Positions 13,604 to 35,462 of a stretch of 64,000 nt of DNA are shown piece after piece. The notes beneath the pieces were generated by a model. The model was not told the origin of the DNA, ran no database searches, and saw only the letters and a program-made list of their open reading frames with translations. The position numbers and the translations under genes are program-made. The stretch lies in assembly GCA_000165345.1 (NCBI GenBank), contig CM000430.1, forward strand, positions 896,001 to 960,000. Reading direction: 5' to 3'. Every line of letters starts with the position of its first letter. The stretch's first letter is position 1.

Positions 13604-16069
13604 TTATTTTCTCCTGGATCCATACTTGATATTACGAATAGTATCCTTGATAGCTTTTTCTAGAAAATTCATATGCTTAATTCTCATAACATGTGGCCAT
13701 GTTCTCCTTTCACCTTCAGTTATAAAGTGAAGCATATCATCATATGACGGATGATTAATACACCTATACCAATCAAAAAGGGATACTCTTGGAGTAATAG
13801 TAACATGACCTTCAATTTCTTGTAACATCCAAAAATTGCTAACATCTTTTCCAAATAACTTTGGAATTAATTTCAGTTTTGCTAATTTAGTATACCTATA
13901 TTTAATATCTAAAGTTAACCAATTTAAAACATTATGTAAAAATGTTCGCTCTGGGTGAATTATGCTTGTATTTATTGGATTTACTGAAACAAAAGGTACA
14001 TGATGTGGGTTTACTTGTGATACAATAAATTGTCGTACATTAAATAATGTTGATAACTCTTTATGTGGTATATCTTGAGAAATTGATCCATCCATCCATT
14101 TCATTCCTGGTGGAAAATATCGGATTATTTTATTGGTATGATTTTCTTTTGCAAATAATTCTGCTACTGGCATTAATCCTGGTAATGCACAAGAAGCTGA
14201 AACTGCACTCCAAAGTAAAATATCTGGAGTAGTAATACAATTTAAAACTAATGGTTCAGTAAATTCTGGAGTTACATAAGTTGGACTCACTGTTATTGTT
14301 ACTATTCTTCCTGTTAATTTATATGCTTCATAGAATGTATAATTCTTAAAGTAAGTCTGACAAGTCTTAATAAATTCTTTTGGATCTATCATATAACCTT
14401 TTACTAGGAAATGACGGATCTGATCTAATAATGGAGGAAACCAACGATGACCATGCATATTTGAAACTGTTGGTTTAATATATTCGTTTAAAATCTCTTC
14501 ATTACTTTTTGTTGCAAGTATTGCTGCAACAATTGAACCTCCACTTGTGCCATTGATTATTTTTGGCATTATATCTTGTTCTAATAAAACTTTAACAACA
14601 CCCAAATGATACATTGCTAAAGCTCCTCCTCCACTTAAGCATAAAGCAGTTTTGCCTGTTGAATGCCCTAAAAGTTCTAAATAATGAATTAAGCTATTAC
14701 TTGCTAACGAGCCTTCACTTTTTGAAAATGTTAGAACTGATCCAGTACCTGTTTCAAAGCTAAATTGGCTCATATAATTCTTTCTTACTTTATTTTCATA
14801 GTAATAACCCCAATCAGAATTCCATCTATCACTACCATCCTTTGAAATATTAAACCCACTATCGATCGCTTGTAAATCATTATCATACTCCTTACAATGA
14901 CATTCTTTATTAATACCGGAATTTAATTCGTCTTTATTTACTTTATTTTCTTCATTATTTGCCAAACATTTTTCACATGTTTGAATAGAAACATTCTTTG
15001 ACATATTCTCCATTCTAAACTCTGATAAAGAAGAAATTGAAGTATTCATTAAATCTCTATTTTTTAAAGATATTCTACCAGATGAACTTTTATTATTCAT
15101 TCTTCCTGTGCTTGAAAGCTCTTGCTCATTACTAGTCAAGTAAAGATTTTTTGTCTCTTCTTTAATTGAATCACTATTCGAGTTTTCCTTTTCTTCCTCT
15201 AAAAGCCTTTCTATATCATCAAAATCAAAACCTTCATCGCCATCTTCCATACTGAAATTCATTGAATTTTCTTCTATTTCCTTATTGAATAATGAACTAC
15301 TTGAATAAATACTTGATTGTTTTGAGAAGCTTATCAATCTTTCTATTGAATTTGATCTTGAATCCTGATCAGAAGAAAGTTTATATGTATTTCTATCACT
15401 TAAAGCATTCTCAAGTTCTATTGAAAGTTCTGGAGATTTTGAACACATTGTCAAAAACTTTAATACATTCTCAATCTCATCCTCAAATTCATCTATTAGA
15501 ATCTTTGTACCAGAAAACGCTTTGTTATATAATGCTTGTTTTGATATTGACGCAAAATTCCTATCGCAACACCATCTTAATAGAAATACCAATTTCTTCA
15601 AATTATTGTTCTTTCTTGCTTCTTTCAACCTAGTTATATACTCCTTTAAATAAATCCATTGATAATCATCAGTCTCCTCAACTGATCTCCATTCATATCC
15701 ACCACAAATCTCATCCAATTTAGTACCAATATTAAACCATTCATCATAACTATTTGATTGTTCTAATCTGTAATATAGTTCATCTCTTGCTGTATGGAAA
15801 CTTCTAATCCATAAACTTAATCTTAATAATAAACTTGACCATATAAATAGTATAATATTTATTGATATTCTAAATATATGATATAATCCCAGCATTACCC
15901 TCCCAAACGAAAATAGAAATGAGCCCAATAACCATAAGCACCATGTCATCCATATTAATGCATATTGTCTAATTCTTGCATTAATTAAAATCAATAATGC
16001 AAATGTTGTTAAAAAAGTTGTTGAAAATATCAAATGGACCAAAAATATTACCAACCATGTACTAATCAT
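13604..16069 (-). CDS. Patatin-like triacylglycerol lipase, SDP1/TGL4 family
   Basis: The ORF-track start at 16090 is TTG; the first ATG is at 16069, giving 821 aa. N-terminal TM plus DUF3336-like region. Patatin oxyanion motif LCLSGGGALAMYHLGVV and lipase GTSGGS (GxSxG). Long collinear similarity to plant SDP1 and yeast Tgl4 (FYEAYKLTGRIVTITVSP; LWSAVSASCALPGL; WMDGSISQDIP; LFNVRQFIVSQVNPH). Contains a 200-aa Ser/Asn-rich insertion. Confidence 0.85.
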   Translation of the reverse strand: MISTWLVIFLVHLIFSTTFLTTFALLILINARIRQYALIWMTWCLWLLGSFLFSFGRVMLGLYHIFRISINIILFIWSSLLLRLSLWIRSFHTARDELYYRLEQSNSYDEWFNIGTKLDEICGGYEWRSVEETDDYQWIYLKEYITRLKEARKNNNLKKLVFLLRWCCDRNFASISKQALYNKAFSGTKILIDEFEDEIENVLKFLTMCSKSPELSIELENALSDRNTYKLSSDQDSRSNSIERLISFSKQSSIYSSSSLFNKEIEENSMNFSMEDGDEGFDFDDIERLLEEEKENSNSDSIKEETKNLYLTSNEQELSSTGRMNNKSSSGRISLKNRDLMNTSISSLSEFRMENMSKNVSIQTCEKCLANNEENKVNKDELNSGINKECHCKEYDNDLQAIDSGFNISKDGSDRWNSDWGYYYENKVRKNYMSQFSFETGTGSVLTFSKSEGSLASNSLIHYLELLGHSTGKTALCLSGGGALAMYHLGVVKVLLEQDIMPKIINGTSGGSIVAAILATKSNEEILNEYIKPTVSNMHGHRWFPPLLDQIRHFLVKGYMIDPKEFIKTCQTYFKNYTFYEAYKLTGRIVTITVSPTYVTPEFTEPLVLNCITTPDILLWSAVSASCALPGLMPVAELFAKENHTNKIIRYFPPGMKWMDGSISQDIPHKELSTLFNVRQFIVSQVNPHHVPFVSVNPINTSIIHPERTFLHNVLNWLTLDIKYRYTKLAKLKLIPKLFGKDVSNFWMLQEIEGHVTITPRVSLFDWYRCINHPSYDDMLHFITEGERRTWPHVMRIKHMNFLEKAIKDTIRNIKYGSRRK

Positions 16070-16915
16070 TGTCAGATGTATTACATGCAAACAATATTAC
16101 ATGCTTACATGCATGTGGATAAAATTAATATTTATATATAATATATAATAATAATAATATAACCAGCTTCTTCAATTAATTTTCCACACCTTTTATACAA
16201 TACTTGGATCTGAGTTAAGGATTTGAAGTTATTTCACAAAGCTTGTAAAAGTAATAGAAATAATTTAATTATTTTTATTATTTTGTTTTTTTTTTACCAT
16301 TTTACTTAATAAATTTATATATACAATTTAATGTATAGCTCCAAACTCATTAATTTAGTATTTTAGGGAGTACTTGTTTTACCAATTCTTAGATTAGCAA
16401 ATATAGGAAAATATAACTACCCTTAATCAAGTTATTTTGGGGAAAAATAAAAAGAAAAAACTGATTATAATTTTTTTTTTTAAATTTTTAATTTAATTTT
16501 TGTGTCAATTTTTAAATGCAATTTCCCCACATGCCATTTATTTTTCTTCCTCGCTTACGTGAAAAAAAAAATTCATTGCACATGTACCGCGCAAACTACT
16601 AAATAAGCCAAAGAATTAATTAAAATAATTAATACGTGTAATATTATATTTATTTATTTATAATTGGAACAAATTTCAGTCAAATACCTAGTAAATCCAG
16701 ATTTAATTCAATATTTCTATGACCCACAGGTTAATGGAAGCTTGAATCTATTTGGATTTGTTGGAAAGGACATTTTGAGGGAATATTGTATTAAATCTAG
16801 AAATCCACTTGAGGAAATTAGAATTAAAAAATAAAATAAAATAATAATATCAATAATAATAAATCAAGAGAATCAAATTTCCTTGGTCACCAAATTATCA
16901 AATTATTTTTTGTTG

Positions 16916-21834: not shown

Positions 21835-22975
21835 TATGAAATTCTACACTTTTGTTAATATAATCTAACTTTGATAATAGAGTTTCTTGGCTTTTTGTTT
21901 TTATATTTAAGCTTCTTTCTTAAATATTACTTTTTCCACTTTATTCTTTCTTTTTTGGTCTTTAAACCCGTATATTGAATTAAAATTCCGACTATAAAGG
22001 TACCTAAATCTTAAAAAATTTACCGACCTTTATAATTCGCTATTTTTTTTTCGTTTTCCCTCTTTATTTCCTTTTATATTACTATGCAAACAATTTTCCG
22101 ATTATGAGGGGTAAATTTTTAATTACACTTTTTGGCACCAATTACCATATTTATCACTTTAAAAATAAAATTGAAAGTAAAAAAAGAGAGAAGAATTTAT
22201 TATTCCACTTTATTAACACTCAAATTATCCAGTCCTCACTATTTTGTATATTGCTAAAAGAAATATCATTTTCCTCTTAATACTGCATTTACCCGCTACT
22301 CTTTTCATGTCAAATTTTCTGCAAACGATTTTTGTCAATCTGCATGCACAGTTGTCCACATTAACTTGTATTGAATAATCTTTTTATTTGATTAGGTGAA
22401 ATTTTGAATTATAATTTGTTTTTTTTAATTATTTTTAAATTTAGATAACAAATAAATATCCAAGTGTTAATTCATTTCTAATTATTTATTTTATTAAAAA
22501 ACTACAAACAATTACTTTAACTTTTTTTTTTAATACAGACTAATTACATAATTATTTATATGCATGCAAATTTATATACTTGGAAAAATTTGCATTATTA
22601 GTGTTCATGCAATGAAAGTAATTAAGTACTGGAGCCATATTACATGTAAAACAATTGATGTGGTAGTATTAGAAAGGGGGCAAAATAAAGTATTTAAAAA
22701 GAACAAAATCGTATGTATGAGATACTGTTAAGTTAGTTGTTTAAATAAATATTTGAATCTGTAAATTAGAATTATAAAATAGTTATGTAATTTTTTAATA
22801 TATTTTATTAGAAATTTTGTAATTGGCGGCACATTAATTGATAAAGGTCATTTCTTTACAATTGACGATATATCTGAAAAAAAAAAAATTAGGAATTAGA
22901 AATAGGGAGTTTTATTATTAACTAATAGGAAACAAATAAGACGTGGAATATAAAACATTATAGATTTTGGAAAAT

Positions 22976-24964
22976 ATGGGTGGTGGTGGAAAAAAGTTCA
23001 TTTCAAAAAAGAAGGGGATAAACCAGGGTCAACTAGGTAAGGCAATATGGAACTCTTCTCAGAAAAAGTTTGAAAGCGCATCTAATGATAAAGAACACTT
23101 GTTGGATGTTATTTGTGATAACTATAATAAGCTGAATAATAAAAGTATTATAGAAATGACAGATTTAGATGAATATTTATCAACATCTCTGAGAGCACAA
23201 GAAAATTTTGAAGAAGAAAAGGTAATAAAAATTATATCTTCACATGGAGTAAATACATCCAACATGAATTTACTTTTAAGGAAAGAAAAAATTCTTGATG
23301 GAAAAGTAATTAATTTACCAATACCTAGACGTCCAATGATATTAGTAGGACCAAATTGCAAAACTAAAAAAGCTCCCAATATGGAGTATTTGGATAACTT
23401 GGAAAAGGAAGCTTTTCTAACTTGGAGAAAGTCAATAGCAGATGAAGAGGAATTAACAGGGTTATTTGTGACTCCATTTGAAAAGAATTTAGAGTTCTGG
23501 AGACAACTATGGAGAACAATTGAAAGAAGCCACGTAGTTGTTGAGATTATTGATAGTAGAGACCCTTTATTTTTCAGAAATGTTGATTTGGAAAGATACA
23601 TTAATGAAATAGATCCTTTGAAGAAAGTAGTTTTACTTTTCAATAAGGCTGATTTCCTTACTTTGGAACTGAGAAAGCAATGGATTCAATACTTTAAAGA
23701 CAATGCTCCAAATCTAAAAGTTTACTTTTTCTCTGCTTTAAATGAAATTAATAAAAGAGAACATCTTGAATCTTACATACCTGAGGACTTTAATTTGAAA
23801 AATATTAATGATACTGATGTACTTTCAACTCATCAATTAATGTATAAACTTTATGAGCTTGCATCAGAAGTTTTCCAAGCCTCCAAACAAAGATACCTAG
23901 ACCAAAAAGAGTACAATAGTGAAGAAACTAATGAAACCACTATATCCAGCATTCGAAACGATGATACGAAAAATGGTCAAAACTCCAATAGCAGCGATGA
24001 AGAAGTAGACAGTGGGAAAAAAGATGATGATGAAGAAGAAGAGGATGACTTTGATGATGAGGAAAGTGATGAAAATGAAGAATTCAAAGAAGATGAAGAT
24101 TTTGAAGAAAATGAGAATATTCCAAATAGTATTTTAGAGAATAAATCAAAAGCTAAAACTGACTCTGAAATTTTCAACCATGTAAAATTAGACCCACTGA
24201 ATCCAGGAGAGTTGACGATAGGCATGGTTGGATTCCCAAATGTTGGAAAATCTTCAATTGTTAATGCTCTTTTTGGAAGCCAAAAGTCTTCAATAAGCAG
24301 AACTCCAGGTAAAACTAAACATTTACAAACTCTTAGATTAAAGCCTCCTCATTTAAATGATAAAGAGGAAGATCAAGATTTTATTACCTTATGTGATTGT
24401 CCAGGTCTAGTCATGCCTTCTTTTACAAGTACAAAAGAGCATCTTCTAATTAATGGTGTTACGCCTATTGATCACTTTAGAGGTAATTTTCTAGATACAA
24501 TTCAACTAATTGGAGAAAGAATAACTGCTCAACTTTATAAAACTTATTTTGATGGAATTGACTATCAAGTGCCAAGAATATTTAATTCAACTCAATTTCT
24601 AAATAAGCTTTGTGAAACTAGGCATCTGTTTCAACAAGGTAAAGGAGCAATTCCAGACTGGAGTAAGGCTGGTAGAATGATTCTAAGAGATTACTGGTCT
24701 GGAAAATTGTTATATTGTCATACTCCACCTTCTAATACTAAGAATACAATAGGCTCAGATCCTATTAAATTAACTGAATCACTGGACAAAGTTAGTATTC
24801 ATGATAATGATGAAGATTCTGATGATGATATTGCAATGCTAAAATCATCAGTATTAAATAATGACATTATTAATCCATCTGACAAAGAGAAAAAGAAAAC
24901 TAAAAGACAAATCAGAATGGAAAATAAAAAACTTATTAAAGGAAGAACTGTATGTTACTCATAG
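22976..24964 (+). CDS. LSG1: Large-subunit GTPase 1 (LSG1), circularly permuted YlqF/RbgA-type GTPase for 60S ribosome export
   Basis: The ORF-track start 22967 is TTG; the ATG is at 22976, giving 662 aa. G4 (LLFNKADFL) precedes G1 (GMVGFPNVGKSS) and G3 (DCPGLV), which is the circular permutation. Long collinear match to yeast and human Lsg1 (EKEAFLTWRKS...TPFEKNLEFWRQLWRTIERS...IIDSRDPLFFRNVDLERYI). Acidic insert (DDDEEEEDDFDDEESDENEE). Confidence 0.9.
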   Translation: MGGGGKKFISKKKGINQGQLGKAIWNSSQKKFESASNDKEHLLDVICDNYNKLNNKSIIEMTDLDEYLSTSLRAQENFEEEKVIKIISSHGVNTSNMNLLLRKEKILDGKVINLPIPRRPMILVGPNCKTKKAPNMEYLDNLEKEAFLTWRKSIADEEELTGLFVTPFEKNLEFWRQLWRTIERSHVVVEIIDSRDPLFFRNVDLERYINEIDPLKKVVLLFNKADFLTLELRKQWIQYFKDNAPNLKVYFFSALNEINKREHLESYIPEDFNLKNINDTDVLSTHQLMYKLYELASEVFQASKQRYLDQKEYNSEETNETTISSIRNDDTKNGQNSNSSDEEVDSGKKDDDEEEEDDFDDEESDENEEFKEDEDFEENENIPNSILENKSKAKTDSEIFNHVKLDPLNPGELTIGMVGFPNVGKSSIVNALFGSQKSSISRTPGKTKHLQTLRLKPPHLNDKEEDQDFITLCDCPGLVMPSFTSTKEHLLINGVTPIDHFRGNFLDTIQLIGERITAQLYKTYFDGIDYQVPRIFNSTQFLNKLCETRHLFQQGKGAIPDWSKAGRMILRDYWSGKLLYCHTPPSNTKNTIGSDPIKLTESLDKVSIHDNDEDSDDDIAMLKSSVLNNDIINPSDKEKKKTKRQIRMENKKLIKGRTVCYS

Positions 24965-26456: not shown

Positions 26457-27052
26457 ATGGATGAATCGTCTATACATTTACCTGTAATAAATACATGGAA
26501 TAAACAAATGGAGAAAGTTAAACTATTCATGAAGCAAAATTCTAACATAGACTTTGATGATATAGAAAGAAAATTTCTTATTTTACAAAAGGAAATGACT
26601 GATGAAATTAAAGGAATGCTCTTTGCAAACTATAAAAACATTGATTTTGCTCAACAAAAAGTAAGTCCATCCAATTTTTTCTTATTAGATTAAAAAATCC
26701 ACAAACTTTACTTTAATATACTTTTATTCTAATATTTATTATTAATTAACCATCTCTCTTTCAGGATTGCCCTAAAATGAATAGACTAATAACAGAGAAC
26801 AAATTATTACTTAATCAACTTAAAGAAATTGGTAAGGAATTGTTATTAAAGAGTGAACAAATTCAAGAAAAAAACGCAATGATAGACAAATATCAGAAAG
26901 AAATAAGGAAACTTGAGTTAGAGCAAACTGTGAATAAAATCCAAGAAAACATGGACAAAGATCAAAACTTGGAGCTTGTATCCAAACTCGAAAATCAAGT
27001 TTTTGCACTTAATCAGAAATTAAATATTATTAGGGATACAGTTAACAATTAG
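26457..27052 (+). CDS. Small coiled-coil protein, 2 exons (26457..26660 and 26765..27052), 163 aa
   Basis: Exon 1 ends ...FAQQK immediately before GTAAGT (26661). The 104-nt AT-rich intron ends in the pyrimidine tract ccatctctctttCAG (26764). Exon 2 continues in frame (DCPKMNRLITENKLL...) and is heptad-rich to the stop at 27052. The ORF track splits it into 26457..26693 and 26777..27052. Confidence 0.5.
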
Positions 27053-27530: not shown

Positions 27531-29825
27531 ATGATTAATGGCTTATATGGATTAATTAACACTGGTACTTCTATATTGAAAGGAGGTAGGAATCCAGAAA
27601 TTGGATTGGATGACATTCACAAAAATCGAATTAAAAATGAAATAGAACAACTTAAATTAAACCAATGCAAATTGGAAAAATGCAGGGACAATCTGACATT
27701 CGAAAATAACCGTTACCATACGCAATATTGTCATTTTCACGTCAATAATGTAACTATGTATGATAAGGAAAGTAGGAAGAATTATGTTCTAATTGATATT
27801 TCAATTATGATAGAAGATGTAGATACTTTTCTTAATAATGAAATCCCTGTACAAATAATACTATATAAAGACTTTCCATTTAGCCCTCCAGATATTACTT
27901 TTCCAAGTACATTTTGTTTCCCAAGTCTAAGTGATGGTCGCAGTTTTACAGCAGAAATCCTTCATGAATGGTCACCAAGTATCAATTTATTGACTACTGT
28001 TGATTCAATTATAAAGTTTTTAAAAAGTTATAGTACTCATATTGCAGTTGTAGGCCCTTCTGATATGTTTATAGGAAGCTATAGAAACCCCATATCATTT
28101 AACTACCAATGCTATAACTCTTTGGTATACCCAATTCTGGGTACCAAAATTATCTTTGAAGATGACGTTTTTAAACACATTTTTGAAAATAACTCTATTA
28201 AAGAACAAAATGTGATATCCCAAAGAGGAAGAAATCTGGTTTCATCATTCATTCCAATCCCCTTAAATACTAGAGGGCTTAGACGAGAAACTATGAATTG
28301 GAGAATTGAAAAGCCATGTATTAATATTGATTTTGTATTCAACAATACAAATGTGATGTTATTCGATTCCACTATGCTTGTTTTAGAAGTTTGTCAAAAA
28401 ACCAAGCAAAATGGGATATTTCAAGCAAGCAATCCCTCCAAAACCTCTTCATCTTCTGATGAAATCATATCAGACTCCACTTTGCAAGGTAATGTAGCAT
28501 ATTGGCTATATATGCCTGCAATAAGTCACATTATCGACTGTCATGGCAAGCTTATTTTTGGAAACCAAGGTACTCTCCCAGAATATATTTCAAATAAACT
28601 AAGTAAACTCGAATATTCAGAATGCCTAGTTATAATCTTAGGTTATGACTTCCTTTTTGAGAAATCTCCTATATTGTTTTATCAAAATGAAGAGTTAATC
28701 CAAACTCCTAAAGATTCAACTAGACCTATCATCATTGAACTAAAGTTTCATACTACCAAAGCTAATCATGAAAGCTCTTGTTGCCACTCTTTTGCCACAA
28801 ACTTAAGAGAGAAAGTTGCCAAATTAGATTCTAATTTCCCAAAAAACTGTCATAATCCAAAATGGAACTCCTACTTCGAGTTTGATTGTCTTTCTAACTT
28901 GAATAAGAAATATCAACAAGCAATCACTGGAAATCATATATATCTTTCATCTGAAATTATACAGAGATGGGTTGTTATATGTTCTAAGCTTATTGAACAA
29001 TCTTCCCTTCTTTCTGAAACAGACGAAAAATACATACAAGAATCATCTTCATTGGTAAAGCAGATGCAAGACATTCTAGTTAGCCCTGTTGTAAAACACA
29101 TTCTAAACTCGAATACAAGTAAGCCAAGCAAGGTCAGTAGCATTGATGAAGACCTTCAAAATGATACCTTTTATAAGCATCTCGAGGAATACTCTCCTGA
29201 GAACCCCACCAAACATGAATTATCTCAACAAGAGTCTCAAAAAGCGGAAACCCCACGCCAACAGGATGTCCAAGAAAACCAAATTCTCCACCCCATTCAT
29301 GAAATTCAGCCAATACAAAATAATCCGAATTCTATGAAAGTCACACACAAAGATGGAACTTCACCAACTCCAGAAATTCTACACATTGAAGGTACCACAC
29401 ACACTCAAGAAATTCCTTTATCACATGAAATTCTAACCATCCAAGAAACTTCTCCAATACAAGAAATTCCACCCATCCAAGAAGCTTCTCCAATACAAGA
29501 AACTCCACCCATCCAAGAAACTTCTCCAATACAAGAAATCCCAACCATCAATGAACCTTCTCATACCCATCCACAACTAATTAACCTCGACATTTCCTCA
29601 GAAACTGAAAATGATAATCATCTTGATGAATCTACCAACAACTATGGTGAAATATCAAAATCATGTGACCAAAATATGCAGATCATCCAACCATCCAATT
29701 ATACTAGTTCCCTACAAAGTGATCATCCCACATCTACAGATCCAAACCAAACATATGCTAATCAAAACTACATAAGTCTCTATGAATCTAGTAGTGATGA
29801 ATTCAGTGTTCGTGAATTTGACTAA
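27531..29825 (+). CDS. UEV (ubiquitin E2 variant)-domain protein, TSG101/Vps23-like N-terminus, with C-terminal Pro-rich tandem repeats
   Basis: The ORF-track start 27519 is GTG; the ATG is at 27531, giving 764 aa. N-terminal UBC-fold region lacking the catalytic Cys: ILYKDFPFSPPDITFPSTFCFPSLSDGRSFTAEILHEWSPSINLLTTVDSIIKFL (compare TSG101 YPYNPPICFVKPT...YLPYLHEWKHPQSDLLGLIQVMI). C-terminal repeat (PIQETSP/PIQEIPP) times about 6. Confidence 0.55.
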   Translation: MINGLYGLINTGTSILKGGRNPEIGLDDIHKNRIKNEIEQLKLNQCKLEKCRDNLTFENNRYHTQYCHFHVNNVTMYDKESRKNYVLIDISIMIEDVDTFLNNEIPVQIILYKDFPFSPPDITFPSTFCFPSLSDGRSFTAEILHEWSPSINLLTTVDSIIKFLKSYSTHIAVVGPSDMFIGSYRNPISFNYQCYNSLVYPILGTKIIFEDDVFKHIFENNSIKEQNVISQRGRNLVSSFIPIPLNTRGLRRETMNWRIEKPCINIDFVFNNTNVMLFDSTMLVLEVCQKTKQNGIFQASNPSKTSSSSDEIISDSTLQGNVAYWLYMPAISHIIDCHGKLIFGNQGTLPEYISNKLSKLEYSECLVIILGYDFLFEKSPILFYQNEELIQTPKDSTRPIIIELKFHTTKANHESSCCHSFATNLREKVAKLDSNFPKNCHNPKWNSYFEFDCLSNLNKKYQQAITGNHIYLSSEIIQRWVVICSKLIEQSSLLSETDEKYIQESSSLVKQMQDILVSPVVKHILNSNTSKPSKVSSIDEDLQNDTFYKHLEEYSPENPTKHELSQQESQKAETPRQQDVQENQILHPIHEIQPIQNNPNSMKVTHKDGTSPTPEILHIEGTTHTQEIPLSHEILTIQETSPIQEIPPIQEASPIQETPPIQETSPIQEIPTINEPSHTHPQLINLDISSETENDNHLDESTNNYGEISKSCDQNMQIIQPSNYTSSLQSDHPTSTDPNQTYANQNYISLYESSSDEFSVREFD
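29439..29555 (+). repeat. 18-nt tandem repeat (about 6.5 copies) encoding (I/T)QE(T/I/A)(S/P)P units
   Basis: atccaagaaacttctcca / atacaagaaattccaccc / atccaagaagcttctcca / atacaagaaactccaccc / atccaagaaacttctcca / atacaagaaatcccaacc. It also creates the spurious antisense ORF 29341..29544. Confidence 0.8.
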
Positions 29826-30201: not shown

Positions 30202-30720
30202 ATGCCAAACCCAGTTGTATACTTTGATATCTCAATCGGCCAAACTCCAGCCGGTCGTATCACTATGGAGTTGTTTGCAGATAAAGTACCAATAACAGCC
30301 GAAAACTTCAGAGCACTCTGCACTGGAGAAAAGGGAATGGGACAGTCAGGAAAGCCCCTTTGCTACACTGGATCATTCTTCCATCGTATCATTCCACAAT
30401 TCATGATCCAAGGTGGTGATTTTACTCGTGGTGATGGTACTGGTGGTGAGTCAATCTATGGCTCCAAGTTCAGAGATGAAAACTTCGTCTACACTCATGA
30501 CGCCCCATTCCTTCTCTCTATGGCTAATGCTGGTCCAAACACTAATGGATCCCAATTCTTCATTACAACTGTTCCATGCCCATGGTTGGACGGAAAGCAT
30601 GTTGTATTTGGAAAGGTTTTGGAAGGAATGGAAGTAGTAAAGAGCATTGAGAAGTGTGGTTCTCAAAATGGAAAGCCAACCAAGTCTGTATGCATCACTG
30701 CTTCTGGAGTTCTCTCTTAA
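30202..30720 (+). CDS. Cyclophilin A-type peptidyl-prolyl cis-trans isomerase
   Basis: 172 aa. Near-textbook cyclophilin: [38 protein letters not shown]...[34 protein letters not shown]...[19 protein letters not shown]...[20 protein letters not shown] 19-nt poly(T) tract follows 3' at 30811..30829. Confidence 0.95.
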
Positions 30721-31066: not shown

Positions 31067-32089
31067 TTATTCTCCTTGAAAAGAGATAATTGATTGAATC
31101 AAATCTGATTTTCTTGCCCTCTGGCTGATCTCCAATTGAAGTTTACTACAAACATCCTTTAACTCAATAACCTTCATAGAATTTAATATATTCTCATCAT
31201 AATGAGGAATCTTAGCAATTTTTGCTACTTTGCTCGTCTTTTTACCTGATTTCTTTGATTCTACGGATGATGATTTACTAGACCTTCCTGACCCTGACTT
31301 TTCTTTCTCAATAGTCTTCAATTCAGGAGCATTCTCAACTTCCGGATTTGCAGCTTCTGCTGCTTTCACAACACGATTCCTAAGTAAAGGAGCTCTTAGT
31401 CTACCCAAATTAGTCTTTCCTAACACACTTTTCAAAGGATTTTCCTCCTTTTCCAACTTCTCTTCTTGAATAATAGGCTCAGTATCCTTGCTAATACTCT
31501 TTTTAGATTCTGAACTATCTTCATTTTGTGGACGCCTTAAACGACTCTTTTTTAAAGTGGGAGCCTCTTTAGAAACTTTATTCGTTGAATTATTTTCATC
31601 TGCATGTTCTTCCTGTGTTCTTTTCTTAGACTTGATTTTGGATGCAATTTGCTTTTCATCATTACCTTGAACTACTTTTTCAGAGGTAATCTTTTCATTC
31701 AGTAACTTTTCAATCTGAGCATTCATCTCATTTAACTGAGTCTTTAAACTGTTCTTTTCCTCGGTGAGCTCGCTCAACTTCTTTTCATAATCTTTATTCA
31801 TCTGTTGAAAATCTTTTGAAGATTTTTCAAGTTCAAAAATCTTCTTTTCCTTGGATTCCATATCTAATTCTCTCAAGCTTAATTGTTCAGTAATTCTCGC
31901 AACCTCCCCTTGCAAGATCTCATTTTCATGTTCCAATTCACCCATACCCATCATCTGATCCCTTAATATATCAATATATGCTTCAAATTTTCGAGTTTCA
32001 TTTTCTACTAACTTCCTAGTTGAATTCTCAATCTCTGATATTCCTAATTCCAATACACCCTGAGGTTTCTGAATTGATAACAAGCTCAT
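31067..32089 (-). CDS. Coiled-coil protein with Lys/Ser-rich basic region and C-terminal SAP-like helix-loop-helix
   Basis: The ORF-track start 32149 is TTG; the first ATG is at 32089 (MSLLSIQKPQ...), giving 340 aa. Central heptad region. C-terminal ...NILNSMKVIELKDVCSKLQLEISQRARKSDLIQSIISF resembles a SAP/LEM-type motif. A pyrimidine-tract-CAG just 3' of this ATG (ttgttatcaattcag) leaves open an unannotated upstream exon. Confidence 0.5.
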   Translation of the reverse strand: MSLLSIQKPQGVLELGISEIENSTRKLVENETRKFEAYIDILRDQMMGMGELEHENEILQGEVARITEQLSLRELDMESKEKKIFELEKSSKDFQQMNKDYEKKLSELTEEKNSLKTQLNEMNAQIEKLLNEKITSEKVVQGNDEKQIASKIKSKKRTQEEHADENNSTNKVSKEAPTLKKSRLRRPQNEDSSESKKSISKDTEPIIQEEKLEKEENPLKSVLGKTNLGRLRAPLLRNRVVKAAEAANPEVENAPELKTIEKEKSGSGRSSKSSSVESKKSGKKTSKVAKIAKIPHYDENILNSMKVIELKDVCSKLQLEISQRARKSDLIQSIISFQGE

Positions 32090-32708
32090 TCCTGTTCTGT
32101 CGTCACCAAATGATAACCTTTCTAATAAATGTCTCAAATATGTGATCAATTTTTATTCTTTCTTTTTTAATCTTGTAAATATTTCTAAATTCGCATGTTT
32201 TTCCGTTTTAACATGTTTCAAAATCTGTTCCGTACCTTTATGGTCTTTAATATTTACTAAATATTAGTCCACAAGTAGCCCGCCTTTTCCCCGCACAAAT
32301 TTGAATTTGAAAAAAAATGAGGTTTTTACCCCTAATACATGTCCGTAATTCCAAGCTTAATATGCATTATAGAAAAATACATTAATATGATGGGGGCGGA
32401 TCAGCCGTTTGGTTAACTTAATAGTCTTGCATTAATTCCAACTAAAACTTTTGTTATTACGAATTTAGAAGTTGTTACAAAGTAGCATTTGTGCGAATAA
32501 TCTTAGACTAAGGATAAATTAGAAATATACAATGTAATTAAAATCAAAAATTGGAAAAGTAAAACAATTCCAATGAAAAAGTTATTTCAGTAAAAGTGAT
32601 AACAATTAATTATCTTTATAAAAGGTCAAAATTTAGCTAGTAATATATAAAAAAATATAAAAAGTCGGATTCTCACAAAAGAACTATTTGAAGTGAGAAA
32701 TGTTTAAA

Positions 32709-34283: not shown

Positions 34284-35462
34284 ATGGCAGAGGTACCTGT
34301 ATCTGAAGATATTTCAGCCTCACAACAACCACCATCATCCTCATATAGTTTACCTCCACAGTTCTCAAATGAACCAGATGTAAGAACTATGGCGTCTATT
34401 AAGGCGACCCTTTCAAAAAAAGCTGAGGAGCTTGTCAAGGCAGGGCAACCCTATGTAATGACTAGTTTAGGCCCAATCCCATTGCCTGATAATGTAAGAA
34501 ACCAGATTCCAGAGAAATTTGTTGCAGCTCCAGTTCTAGAAGAACGTGAAGTTATTGTTGCAAGAAGAGAAGTACAAGAGAGAATTATTGAAGTTCCACA
34601 AATTCAATATGAGCATAAGTTTGTGGAAGTACCACAAAAGGTCGTGGTTGAGAAGATTATCCCAATCCCAAAAGATGTTGTAAGAGAAGTTGAAATTCCT
34701 CGTTATACAGCAACTGTTGAAGAGAAGGTCATTGAAGTTCCACAAGGTGTCAAATTTGTTGAGGTTCCTGTTGAGGTCCCTATTGCTTATCCTCCAAGAA
34801 TAGTCCCAGTTCCAAAGCCATATATTGTTGAAAGAACTGTTGAGCTTTCTCGTCCAGTTATTGAAGAACGTCTTTTGGAGGTCCCACAAAAAGTTTATCG
34901 TCAAGTCCCATACTACAAGGATGTTGAAGTACCTTTTGTTGTTCCAAGATATGTTGAAAAGCTTGTTGAGATTCCATTCCATCCTGGAATGATGTATGAT
35001 GAAAACATGCTCAATCAATCTATCCCACCTATTCCACCTCAATCACAGCCACCTTTCATGATGGGAGGCCCCGGATCTGCTCCAACTAGTGCTCCTTTAT
35101 TATCTATGCCTCCACCAATGTATGGTACAAACGATCCTGAAGATGTCGCATCTGATGGACTTCCATCGCATCCTGCAATCCCTCCATACCATATGTTGCC
35201 ACAACCACAACCGGGTGTAATTCCTCAGATGATCCCATTGGCTAATTCTTATGCAGCTTTCCCACTTCCACAAGGTGTTGGAATGTCCCCTCATATGTTG
35301 AACTCTGGCAATACTGCGCATATCCCAGGTAAAACGCCTGTACCTTTTAATCCACCTCAACAACCTCCACAGAACCTTCTCAATGGAGTTAATATTAATC
35401 AAATCCAATTCCCTCCTAATCAGCGTCAGCAGTTTCCATACCAATTCCCTCCTCAGCAGTAA
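34284..35462 (+). CDS. Alveolin-repeat inner-membrane-complex (IMC)/subpellicular-network protein
   Basis: 392 aa. Central region is made of iterated alveolin-type motifs (IEVPQIQYEHKFVEVPQKVVVEKIIPIPKDVVREVEIPRYTATVEEKVIEVPQGVKFVEVPVEVPIAYPPRIVPVPKPYIVERTVE...LLEVPQKVYRQVPYYKDVEVPFVVPRYVEKLVEIPF). C-terminal Pro/Gln-rich tail. The antisense ORFs 34536..35042 and 35100..35477 are artefacts of the repeats. Confidence 0.8.
   Translation: MAEVPVSEDISASQQPPSSSYSLPPQFSNEPDVRTMASIKATLSKKAEELVKAGQPYVMTSLGPIPLPDNVRNQIPEKFVAAPVLEEREVIVARREVQERIIEVPQIQYEHKFVEVPQKVVVEKIIPIPKDVVREVEIPRYTATVEEKVIEVPQGVKFVEVPVEVPIAYPPRIVPVPKPYIVERTVELSRPVIEERLLEVPQKVYRQVPYYKDVEVPFVVPRYVEKLVEIPFHPGMMYDENMLNQSIPPIPPQSQPPFMMGGPGSAPTSAPLLSMPPPMYGTNDPEDVASDGLPSHPAIPPYHMLPQPQPGVIPQMIPLANSYAAFPLPQGVGMSPHMLNSGNTAHIPGKTPVPFNPPQQPPQNLLNGVNINQIQFPPNQRQQFPYQFPPQQ

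What the first reader, a model, noticed from the sequence alone, without database searches (positions are those of the whole stretch)
27531..29825. TSG101/Vps23-like UEV protein with a rapidly evolving 18-nt tandem repeat in a lineage reported to have a reduced ESCRT set
The N-terminal 170 aa have the UBC fold without the catalytic Cys and share the TSG101 UEV landmarks (YPYNPP -> FPFSPP; YLPYLHEW -> EILHEWSPS; hydrophobic helix after it). The rest of the protein is long and low-complexity, ending in at least six near-perfect copies of an 18-nt unit encoding (I/T)QE(T/I/A)(S/P)P (29439-29555). TSG101 also has a Pro-rich region after the UEV domain. Apicomplexans are generally reported to have pruned ESCRT-I/II, so a Vps23-like protein would be notable. 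The perfect DNA-level repeats suggest recent expansion or contraction and could serve as a strain-typing locus.
Basis: partly seen in the sequence, partly recalled or inferred. Interest (0 to 1): 0.5.

Follow-up and report, generated by a model that had tools for sequence, protein, structure and literature searches.

The report
Cryptosporidium-only inactive E2-like protein with repeat
This gene encodes a Cryptosporidium-specific protein whose front end looks like a ubiquitin-conjugating enzyme that has lost its catalytic residues; it is not the missing ESCRT-I subunit Vps23/TSG101, and its tail carries a 36-base repeat whose copy number differs between isolates.

Summary
The ORF (27531-29825, +, 764 aa) is real. 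It is the annotated C. parvum "possible UBC domain containing protein" (EAK88624.1). The tandem repeat is also real, but its true period is 36 nt, made of two diverged 18-nt halves.

The Vps23/TSG101 reading fails:
- Pfam UQ_con matches 9/9 orthologs. UEV reaches only 15 bits (cut-off 27), in 2/9.
- hhalign gives 94% probability to UBE2D2, against 2.6% to TSG101 UEV, 0.6% to MMS2 and 0.2% to AKTIP.
- No Vps23 core or steadiness box was found by Pfam, hhalign or a PDB profile search.
- The region after the UBC domain is a conserved PH/PTB-like domain plus a helical region. An exhaustive HMM search of 1.84 billion proteins found it only in Cryptosporidium.

Best reading: a genus-restricted, non-catalytic pseudo-E2 scaffold with a membrane- or peptide-binding module and a disordered tail. 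The tail's repeat varies in 12-aa steps within C. hominis and within C. meleagridis. Its function is inferred, not shown. Interest is modest.

The parts
27531..29825 (+). Whole gene: 764 aa plus stop, single exon. It is the C. parvum 'possible UBC domain containing protein'.
   Evidence: Orthologs in 9+ Cryptosporidium species begin at the same Met.
27597..27659 (+). Helix a1 of the UBC-like domain (aa 23-43). The pattern 'HKNRIKNEIEQL' resembles the E2 'KRIxKEL' helix and is nearly invariant in the genus.
   Evidence: AF2 secondary structure; invariant columns I29 H30 N32 R33 I34 N36 E37 E39 L41. The match to the E2 a1 motif is by eye; hhalign did not align this part.
27660..27731 (+). Insertion between a1 and b1 (aa 44-67). 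Together with the flanking residues it carries invariant C46, C51, H68 and H70. This is a possible metal site and is untested.
   Evidence: low pLDDT
27732..28043 (+). UBC-like core (aa 68-171): four strands, the DFPFSPP loop, a vestigial active-site loop, WSPS and helix a2. Helices a3 and a4 are absent.
27909..27950 (+). Vestigial active-site region (aa 127-140), T-x-CFPSLSDGRS-F-T. FPS replaces HPN and T140 replaces the catalytic Cys. It contains the longest invariant stretch of the protein.
   Evidence: alignments; ortholog columns
28131..28826 (+). Conserved beta-rich region with a PH/PTB/FERM-F3-like fold (aa ~201-432), interrupted by disordered inserts including a Ser-rich one (aa 287-320). 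Found only in Cryptosporidium at the sequence level.
28869..29108 (+). Conserved helical region (aa 447-526, four helices). The fold is a generic helical bundle.
29121..29822 (+). Disordered, fast-evolving tail rich in S/E/I/Q/P/T (aa 531-764).
   Evidence: pLDDT <50 from residue 529; 5-58% identity to orthologs and composition
29439..29546 (+). Core tandem repeat: 3 copies of a 36-nt unit, equal to 6 x 18 nt, encoding IQETSP-IQEIPP. Degenerate copies extend the array to 29403-29564. Copy number varies.
   Evidence: TRF score 210; unit table; identities; 12-aa indels among C. hominis, C. meleagridis and C. tyzzeri
29763..29822 (+). Conserved extreme C-terminus, QNYISLYESSSDEFSVREFD (aa 745-764). 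It is probably a short linear motif; its function is unknown.
   Evidence: Conserved from C. parvum to C. felis while the preceding ~200 aa are not

Best explanation
The gene encodes a cytosolic multidomain protein found only in the genus Cryptosporidium.

Shown:
- The N-terminal domain descends from a canonical-type ubiquitin-conjugating (UBC/E2) core. It has lost the catalytic Cys (now Thr or Ile), the HPN motif (now FPS) and the two C-terminal helices.
- By the canonical mechanism it therefore cannot form a ubiquitin thioester. It is a pseudo-E2: an E2 variant in the broad sense, but not of the TSG101/Vps23, Mms2/UEV1 or AKTIP families.
- It is followed by a PH/PTB-like beta sandwich, a helical region and a disordered tail.

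Inferred mechanism: the protein acts as a non-catalytic adaptor.
- The pseudo-E2 domain keeps helix a1, the DFPFSPP loop (the Phe equivalent to UbcH5 F62) and WSPS (equivalent to S94-P95-A96). In active E2s these contact RING, U-box and HECT E3s and E1.
- The remodelled active-site loop CFPSLSDGRS is absolutely conserved. The domain most likely serves as a docking surface for an E3, an E2 or ubiquitin.
- The PH/PTB-like domain would place it on a membrane lipid or a peptide motif.
- The tail is a rapidly evolving spacer. Its 36-nt repeat gains and loses units by slippage or unequal exchange, without constraint other than reading frame. It ends in a conserved 20-aa motif that may bind a further partner.
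For: Identity and distribution: 100% match to the C. parvum annotation, with orthologs only in Cryptosporidium. The mid-domain profile was searched against 1.84e9 representatives and found only Cryptosporidium, plus one spurious repeat protein.

UBC origin:
- Pfam UQ_con matches 9/9 orthologs, best E 1e-7.
- The top 60 PDB profile hits are all UBE2D/Ubc4-type E2s, E ~2e-5.
- hhalign to UBE2D2: probability 94%, E 1e-7.

Loss of catalysis: Cys replaced by Thr/Ile and HPN by FPS in all orthologs. No a3 or a4 helices in the model.

Purifying selection: aa 1-530 are 38-90% identical across the genus, the tail 5-58%. CFPSLSDGRS, DFPF, WSPS and a1 are invariant.

Repeat dynamics: every length difference among close relatives maps to the repeat, in 12-aa steps.
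Against: - No partner, ligand or localisation is known. The adaptor mechanism is inference from retained motifs, and those motifs are also structural hallmarks of the fold.
- The structural models are of low to medium confidence (mean pLDDT 47 and 59, from a 9-sequence alignment). The active-site loop itself is below pLDDT 50.
- Absence of the N domain outside Cryptosporidium was not tested exhaustively. Two searches returned nothing at all, not even the Cryptosporidium orthologs.
- UQ_con scores exactly at, not above, the Pfam cut-off for the window protein.
Confidence: 0.6

Rival explanations
1. It is a highly diverged Vps23/TSG101, the ESCRT-I ubiquitin- and P(T/S)AP-binding subunit, retained in a lineage thought to lack ESCRT-I.
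For: - UBC fold without Cys and without a3/a4, with an extra N-terminal helix predicted at low confidence.
- Weak Pfam UEV match spanning nearly the whole model: aa 63-162 against profile positions 9-113 of 121, E 0.022.
- hhalign aligns FPFSPP with YPYNPP and LHEW with LHEW.
Against: - UEV is below the cut-off (15 against 27 bits) and matches only 2/9 orthologs, while UQ_con matches 9/9.
- hhalign probability is 2.6%, against 94% for UBE2D2.
- No Vps23_core hit appears in any ortholog at E<=10.
- hhalign of the full alignment against TSG101 215-390 gives probability 0.1%.
- The PDB profile of aa 179-530 gives 0 hits, although the TSG101 and Vps23 core chains are in the PDB.
- Domain order differs.
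- ESCRT-I partners are reported absent from cryptosporidia (PMC4501334).
Confidence: 0.04
2. It is an active but non-canonical E2 that uses another cysteine, for example the invariant C129 two residues before the Pro of the former HPN motif.
For: C129 is invariant and lies in the most conserved stretch, CFPSLSDGRS. The E1/E3-contact motifs are retained.
Against: - C129 aligns with the Tyr that precedes HPN in UBE2D2, not with the catalytic site.
- The HPN Asn needed for catalysis is Ser.
- No known E2 uses that position (general knowledge of the family; not tested here).
Confidence: 0.05
3. It is an Mms2/UEV1-type cofactor of Ubc13 for K63-chain synthesis, with lineage-specific extensions.
Against: hhalign to human MMS2 gives probability 0.6% (reference sequence verified). 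A separate UEV paralog, together with Ubc13, is reported in all the apicomplexan lineages that study examined, which included Cryptosporidium (PMC2408969).
Confidence: 0.03
4. It is an AKTIP/FTS-like pseudo-E2 that links Hook-type adaptors to cargo.
Confidence: 0.03

Closest known systems
Canonical class-I E2 core (UBE2D/Ubc4-5 type; Pfam PF00179 UQ_con)
   Same: Closest by every sequence and structure measure used. It shares the a1 pattern, the (Y/F)PFxPP loop, the WSP(A/S) loop and helix a2.
   Different: There is no catalytic Cys (Thr/Ile), no HPN (FPS), and no a3 or a4. A ~25-aa Cys/His-bearing insertion follows a1. About 590 further residues follow: a PH/PTB-like domain, a helical region and a disordered tail.
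TSG101/Vps23 UEV domain proteins (ESCRT-I)
   Same: An inactive UBC fold lacking the C-terminal helices, plus a low-complexity Pro-containing region somewhere in the protein.
   Different: UEV profile below threshold; no stalk, core or steadiness box; different domain order; no reported ESCRT-I partners in the genus.
Mms2/UEV1 (UBE2V1/2)
   Same: A pseudo-E2 without Cys, HPN or a3/a4.
   Different: No detectable specific sequence similarity. Mms2 is a single-domain ~140-aa protein. The genus is reported to have its own UEV.
AKTIP/FTS
   Same: A pseudo-E2 that acts as an adaptor, with non-UBC extensions. This is the functional analogy for the mechanism proposed here.
   Different: No sequence similarity in the UBC core. 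The extensions differ, and AKTIP has no PH-like domain.

Membership tests
Vps23/TSG101 (ESCRT-I) | N-terminal UEV domain matching PF05743 above threshold | tested here: not met
   15.1 bits against a cut-off of 27, E 0.022. Only 2/9 orthologs match even weakly. hhalign to the verified TSG101 UEV gives probability 2.6%.
Vps23/TSG101 (ESCRT-I) | C-terminal coiled-coil stalk plus Vps23 core/steadiness box (PF09454) that binds Vps28 and Vps37 | tested here: not met
   No PF09454 hit in 9/9 orthologs at E<=10. hhalign against TSG101 215-390 gives probability 0.1%. The PDB profile of aa 179-530 gives 0 hits. The C-terminus is disordered.
Vps23/TSG101 (ESCRT-I) | Presence of the ESCRT-I partners Vps28 and Vps37/MVB12 in the genome | not testable with these tools
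   The Cryptosporidium proteome could not be searched directly. The literature reports no ESCRT-I or ESCRT-II subunits in cryptosporidia (PMC4501334).
Vps23/TSG101 (ESCRT-I) | Binding of ubiquitin and P(T/S)AP peptides by the UEV domain | not testable with these tools
   Requires biochemistry.
UBC/E2 superfamily (PF00179 fold) | UBC core fold and sequence profile | tested here: met
Catalytically active E2 | Active-site Cys and HPN motif | tested here: not met
   Cys is replaced by T140 (Thr/Ile in orthologs) and HPN by FPS in all 9.
Mms2/UEV1 | Specific sequence similarity to UBE2V1/2 | tested here: not met
   hhalign probability 0.6% (reference verified).
Mms2/UEV1 | Ubc13-binding interface | not tested
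   The interface residues were not examined, and binding would need biochemistry.
AKTIP/FTS | Sequence similarity of the UBC-variant core to AKTIP | tested here: not met
   hhalign probability 0.2%, with the core not aligned (reference verified).
RWD domain proteins | Match to the RWD profile (PF05773) | tested here: not met
   No RWD hit at E<=10 in any ortholog. HMMER's filters may hide very weak matches.
PH/PTB superfold | Seven-stranded beta sandwich capped by a C-terminal helix | tested here: inconclusive

The most novel reading that the evidence does not exclude
The protein could be a lineage-specific functional replacement for the lost early ESCRT machinery. One polypeptide would combine a ubiquitin-binding pseudo-E2 (the role of the Vps23 UEV) with a membrane-binding PH-like domain (the role of the Vps36 GLUE domain) and a helical region that engages the retained ESCRT-III/Vps4 module. 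This would be analogy, not homology. Nothing here excludes it, and nothing here supports it beyond the domain combination.
Probability: 0.04. Interest if true: 0.75.

Novelty: new variant of a known kind. Interest (0 to 1): 0.28.

Why it matters
It removes a tempting false positive. Cryptosporidium does not have a hidden Vps23 here, so the reported loss of ESCRT-I stands.

What remains is an uncharacterised, strongly conserved, genus-specific pseudo-E2 with an unusual architecture. Such parasite-specific proteins can be of interest for cell biology or as targets.

The in-frame 36-nt repeat differs in copy number within C. hominis and within C. meleagridis. It is not part of the MLVA or MLST schemes checked here (the validated seven-locus MLVA and the 2025 eight-marker MLST), so it could be evaluated as an extra chromosome-2 marker. 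The five C. parvum assemblies seen here all carry the same allele length, which limits its promise for C. parvum.

Tried and rejected
All were rejected.
- RWD: no Pfam hit.
- P0010, the only non-Cryptosporidium hit of the mid-domain profile: rejected as spurious. It is a 1976-aa protein of 16 near-identical repeats, each weakly matching 28 profile positions, so the summed score is inflated.
- The search for homologous proteins with the N-domain alignment, and with aa 1-178 alone: both returned no hits at all, not even the Cryptosporidium orthologs. This is uninformative tool behaviour.
- afdb50 fold search: the library was unavailable, so structural relatives among other apicomplexan predicted proteomes could not be sought.
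- Known typing loci: the cgd2_3850 minisatellite has a different repeat and its primer is not in the window. The seven-locus MLVA has no chromosome-2 locus. The MLST chromosome-2 marker CPATCC_0028230 is 2262 bp, not this 2295-bp gene.
- Literature searches for the repeat sequence, the annotation name and the likely gene IDs found nothing on this gene.
- Two pairs of equal-length ORFs elsewhere in the window were checked for paralogy. They are unrelated.

Full report
**1. What is there**

The + strand carries a single long ORF whose first ATG is at 27531 and whose stop ends at 29825 (764 aa). The window is AT-rich (about 21-36% GC in 2-kb windows). The protein is identical to the Cryptosporidium parvum Iowa II protein EAK88624.1, annotated 'possible UBC domain containing protein'. 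It differs by one residue (V520I) from the cluster representative KAL5370209.1.

Full-length orthologs were found only in Cryptosporidium. Identities to the window protein are:
- chipmunk genotype I: 80%
- C. canis and C. felis: 61%
- C. ryanae and C. bovis: 51%
- C. serpentis and C. andersoni: 40%

All start at the same Met, apart from a short N-terminal extension in the C. felis model. Conservation is sharply regional:
- aa 1-178: 49-89% identical to orthologs
- aa 179-530: 38-90%
- aa 531-764: 5-58%

The gene is therefore real and under purifying selection over its first 530 residues.

**2. The N-terminal domain**

Sequence evidence points to a canonical-type UBC core:
- Pfam gives UQ_con (PF00179) at E 3.8e-6 and 27 bits, exactly the gathering score, for aa 83-166. 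UEV (PF05743) reaches only E 0.022 and 15.1 bits against a cut-off of 27.
- Across the nine orthologs, UQ_con matches 9/9 (best E 1e-7) and UEV 2/9.
- A profile of the N domain searched against PDB sequences returns catalytic E2s of the UBE2D/Ubc4 type as the 60 best hits, E about 2e-5.
- hhalign of the same alignment gives probability 94% (E 1e-7) to UBE2D2, 2.6% to the TSG101 UEV, 0.6% to human MMS2 and 0.2% to AKTIP.
UBE2D2 was not separately verified beyond its agreement with the fragments printed.

The alignments agree on the key positions. 'DFPFSPP' aligns with 'DYPFKPP', 'FPS' with 'HPN', 'SFTAEIL' with 'SICLDIL', and 'WSPS' with 'WSPA'. The catalytic Cys is therefore Thr140, and it is Thr or Ile in every ortholog.

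Structural evidence confirms a UBC fold but cannot separate the subfamilies:
- The AF2 model has low overall confidence (mean pLDDT 47), with the UBC elements mostly at pLDDT 58-80. It shows a1 (23-43), four strands (68-123) and a2 (153-171), and no a3 or a4.
- The Foldseek top 50 are all catalytic E2s, but the E-values are weak; the best is 3.7e-3.

**3. No Vps23 core**

- No ortholog has any PF09454 signal at E<=10.
- hhalign of the full alignment against TSG101 residues 215-390 (stalk plus steadiness box, verified against 3IV1 and 6VME) gives probability 0.1%.
- The profile of aa 179-530 has no PDB sequence hit at E<=10.
- Where Vps23 has its stalk and core, this protein is disordered and unconserved.
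- The literature states that cryptosporidia appear to lack all ESCRT-I and ESCRT-II subunits (PMC4501334).

**4. What follows the UBC domain**

An exhaustive HMMER search of the aa 179-530 profile against 1.84 billion representative proteins found only Cryptosporidium proteins. The one exception is an artefact: a protein of 16 near-identical repeats whose weak partial matches add up.

Two AF2 models, full length and aa 179-530 alone (mean pLDDT 59), agree on the layout:
- a beta-rich module, interrupted by disordered inserts that include a conserved Ser-rich stretch;
- four helices at aa 447-526.

**5. The repeat**

Six in-frame hexapeptide units, IQE[T/I/A][S/P]P, occupy 29439-29546. Degenerate copies flank them on both sides. 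TRF prefers a period of 36 nt (score 210, 88% matches) over 18 nt (score 101, 70%). The three 36-nt units are 89-94% identical, whereas neighbouring 18-nt halves are 56-78% identical, 69% on average. This is the only array scoring >=80 in the whole window.

Within the 90%-identity cluster, every length difference maps to this array and is a multiple of 6 aa:

| Species | Protein length(s) | Difference |
|---|---|---|
| C. parvum (5 accessions) | 764 aa | none |
| C. hominis | 764 and 752 aa | 12 aa between isolates |
| C. meleagridis | 734 and 722 aa | 12 aa between isolates |
| C. tyzzeri | 740 aa | 24 aa shorter than C. parvum |

The within-species differences and the C. tyzzeri deletion are whole 12-aa (36-nt) units. 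The larger deletion shared by both C. meleagridis sequences is 30 aa. This supports recent expansion and contraction. The caveat is that assemblies can collapse repeats.

The locus is not in the validated seven-locus MLVA scheme, which has no chromosome-2 locus (PMC9043402). It is not the cgd2_3850 minisatellite, and it is not the 2025 MLST chromosome-2 marker.

**6. Mechanism**

Shown: the domain cannot use the canonical Cys/HPN chemistry, and the first 530 residues are conserved.

Inferred: the elements that are invariant across the genus are helix a1, DFPF, WSPS and above all the remodelled loop T-x-CFPSLSDGRS. In active E2s, the first three of these form the E1/E3-binding face. This suggests that the pseudo-E2 is a docking module for a component of the ubiquitin system, as in other pseudo-E2 adaptors. 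The PH/PTB-like domain would then supply localisation. These motifs are also fold determinants, so the inference is weak. I rate 'non-catalytic, genus-restricted pseudo-E2 scaffold, not Vps23' as very likely, and the specific adaptor mechanism as plausible but untested.

**7. Novelty and score**

The gene is already annotated, but only generically, and I found no paper on it. To my knowledge (not tested) the combination of pseudo-E2, PH/PTB-like domain and helical region is not a described family. I therefore call it a new variant of a known kind, the inactive E2 variants. Lineage-specific pseudo-enzymes and coding minisatellites are common in Cryptosporidium, and the exciting reading (a hidden ESCRT-I subunit) is refuted. 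Interest is modest at 0.28.

Noticed in passing
window 27666-27740 (aa 46-70): Invariant C46, C51, H68 and H70 in and around a ~25-aa insertion between UBC helix a1 and strand b1. This could be a CCHH metal-binding site, which canonical E2s do not have.
   Followed up: partly
window 28749-28784 (aa 407-418): Invariant H407, H413, C417 and C418 ('FHxxKAxHExSCC') at the start of the helix that caps the PH-like module. This is a second possible metal site.
   Followed up: no
window 27909-27944 (aa 127-138): The remodelled active-site loop T-x-CFPSLSDGRS contains the longest invariant stretch of the protein across the genus, yet AF2 models it with pLDDT <50. A relic loop would be expected to decay, so it may be a new functional site.
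   Followed up: partly
window 29763-29822 (aa 745-764): The last 20 residues, QNYISLYESSSDEFSVREFD, are conserved from C. parvum to C. felis, although the ~200 residues before them are not. This is likely a short linear motif: a Ser/acidic cluster with YxxL.
   Followed up: no
window 28431-28490 (aa ~301-320): A conserved Ser-rich acidic stretch, 'SKTSSSSDEIxSDSTLQG', sits inside a disordered insertion of the PH-like module. C. ryanae and C. bovis carry much longer insertions at the same place.
   Followed up: no
window 30202-30720 (+): The gene immediately downstream is a cyclophilin whose structure is solved (PDB 2PLU/2POY, E 6e-116). A 15-nt x 2.5 tandem array at 30413-30449 overlaps this gene.
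   Followed up: partly
window 26457-27052 (+): Two adjacent small ORFs (78 and 91 aa) lie just upstream, with no Pfam hit. They may be parts of one gene, split by an intron or a frame change.
   Followed up: no
window 13604-16090 (-), 22967-24964 (+), 31067-32149 (-), 34284-35462 (+): Neighbouring genes are unrelated housekeeping or apicomplexan genes: a patatin-like phospholipase with DUF3336, an MMR_HSR1 GTPase, a SAP-domain protein and an IMCp (alveolin) inner-membrane-complex protein. No ubiquitin or ESCRT genes lie nearby.
   Followed up: partly
P0010 (metagenomic protein, 1976 aa): A protein of 16 near-identical ~118-aa repeats reached E 1e-17 against the mid-domain profile purely by summing weak partial matches. 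It is an example of repeat-inflated significance.
   Followed up: yes
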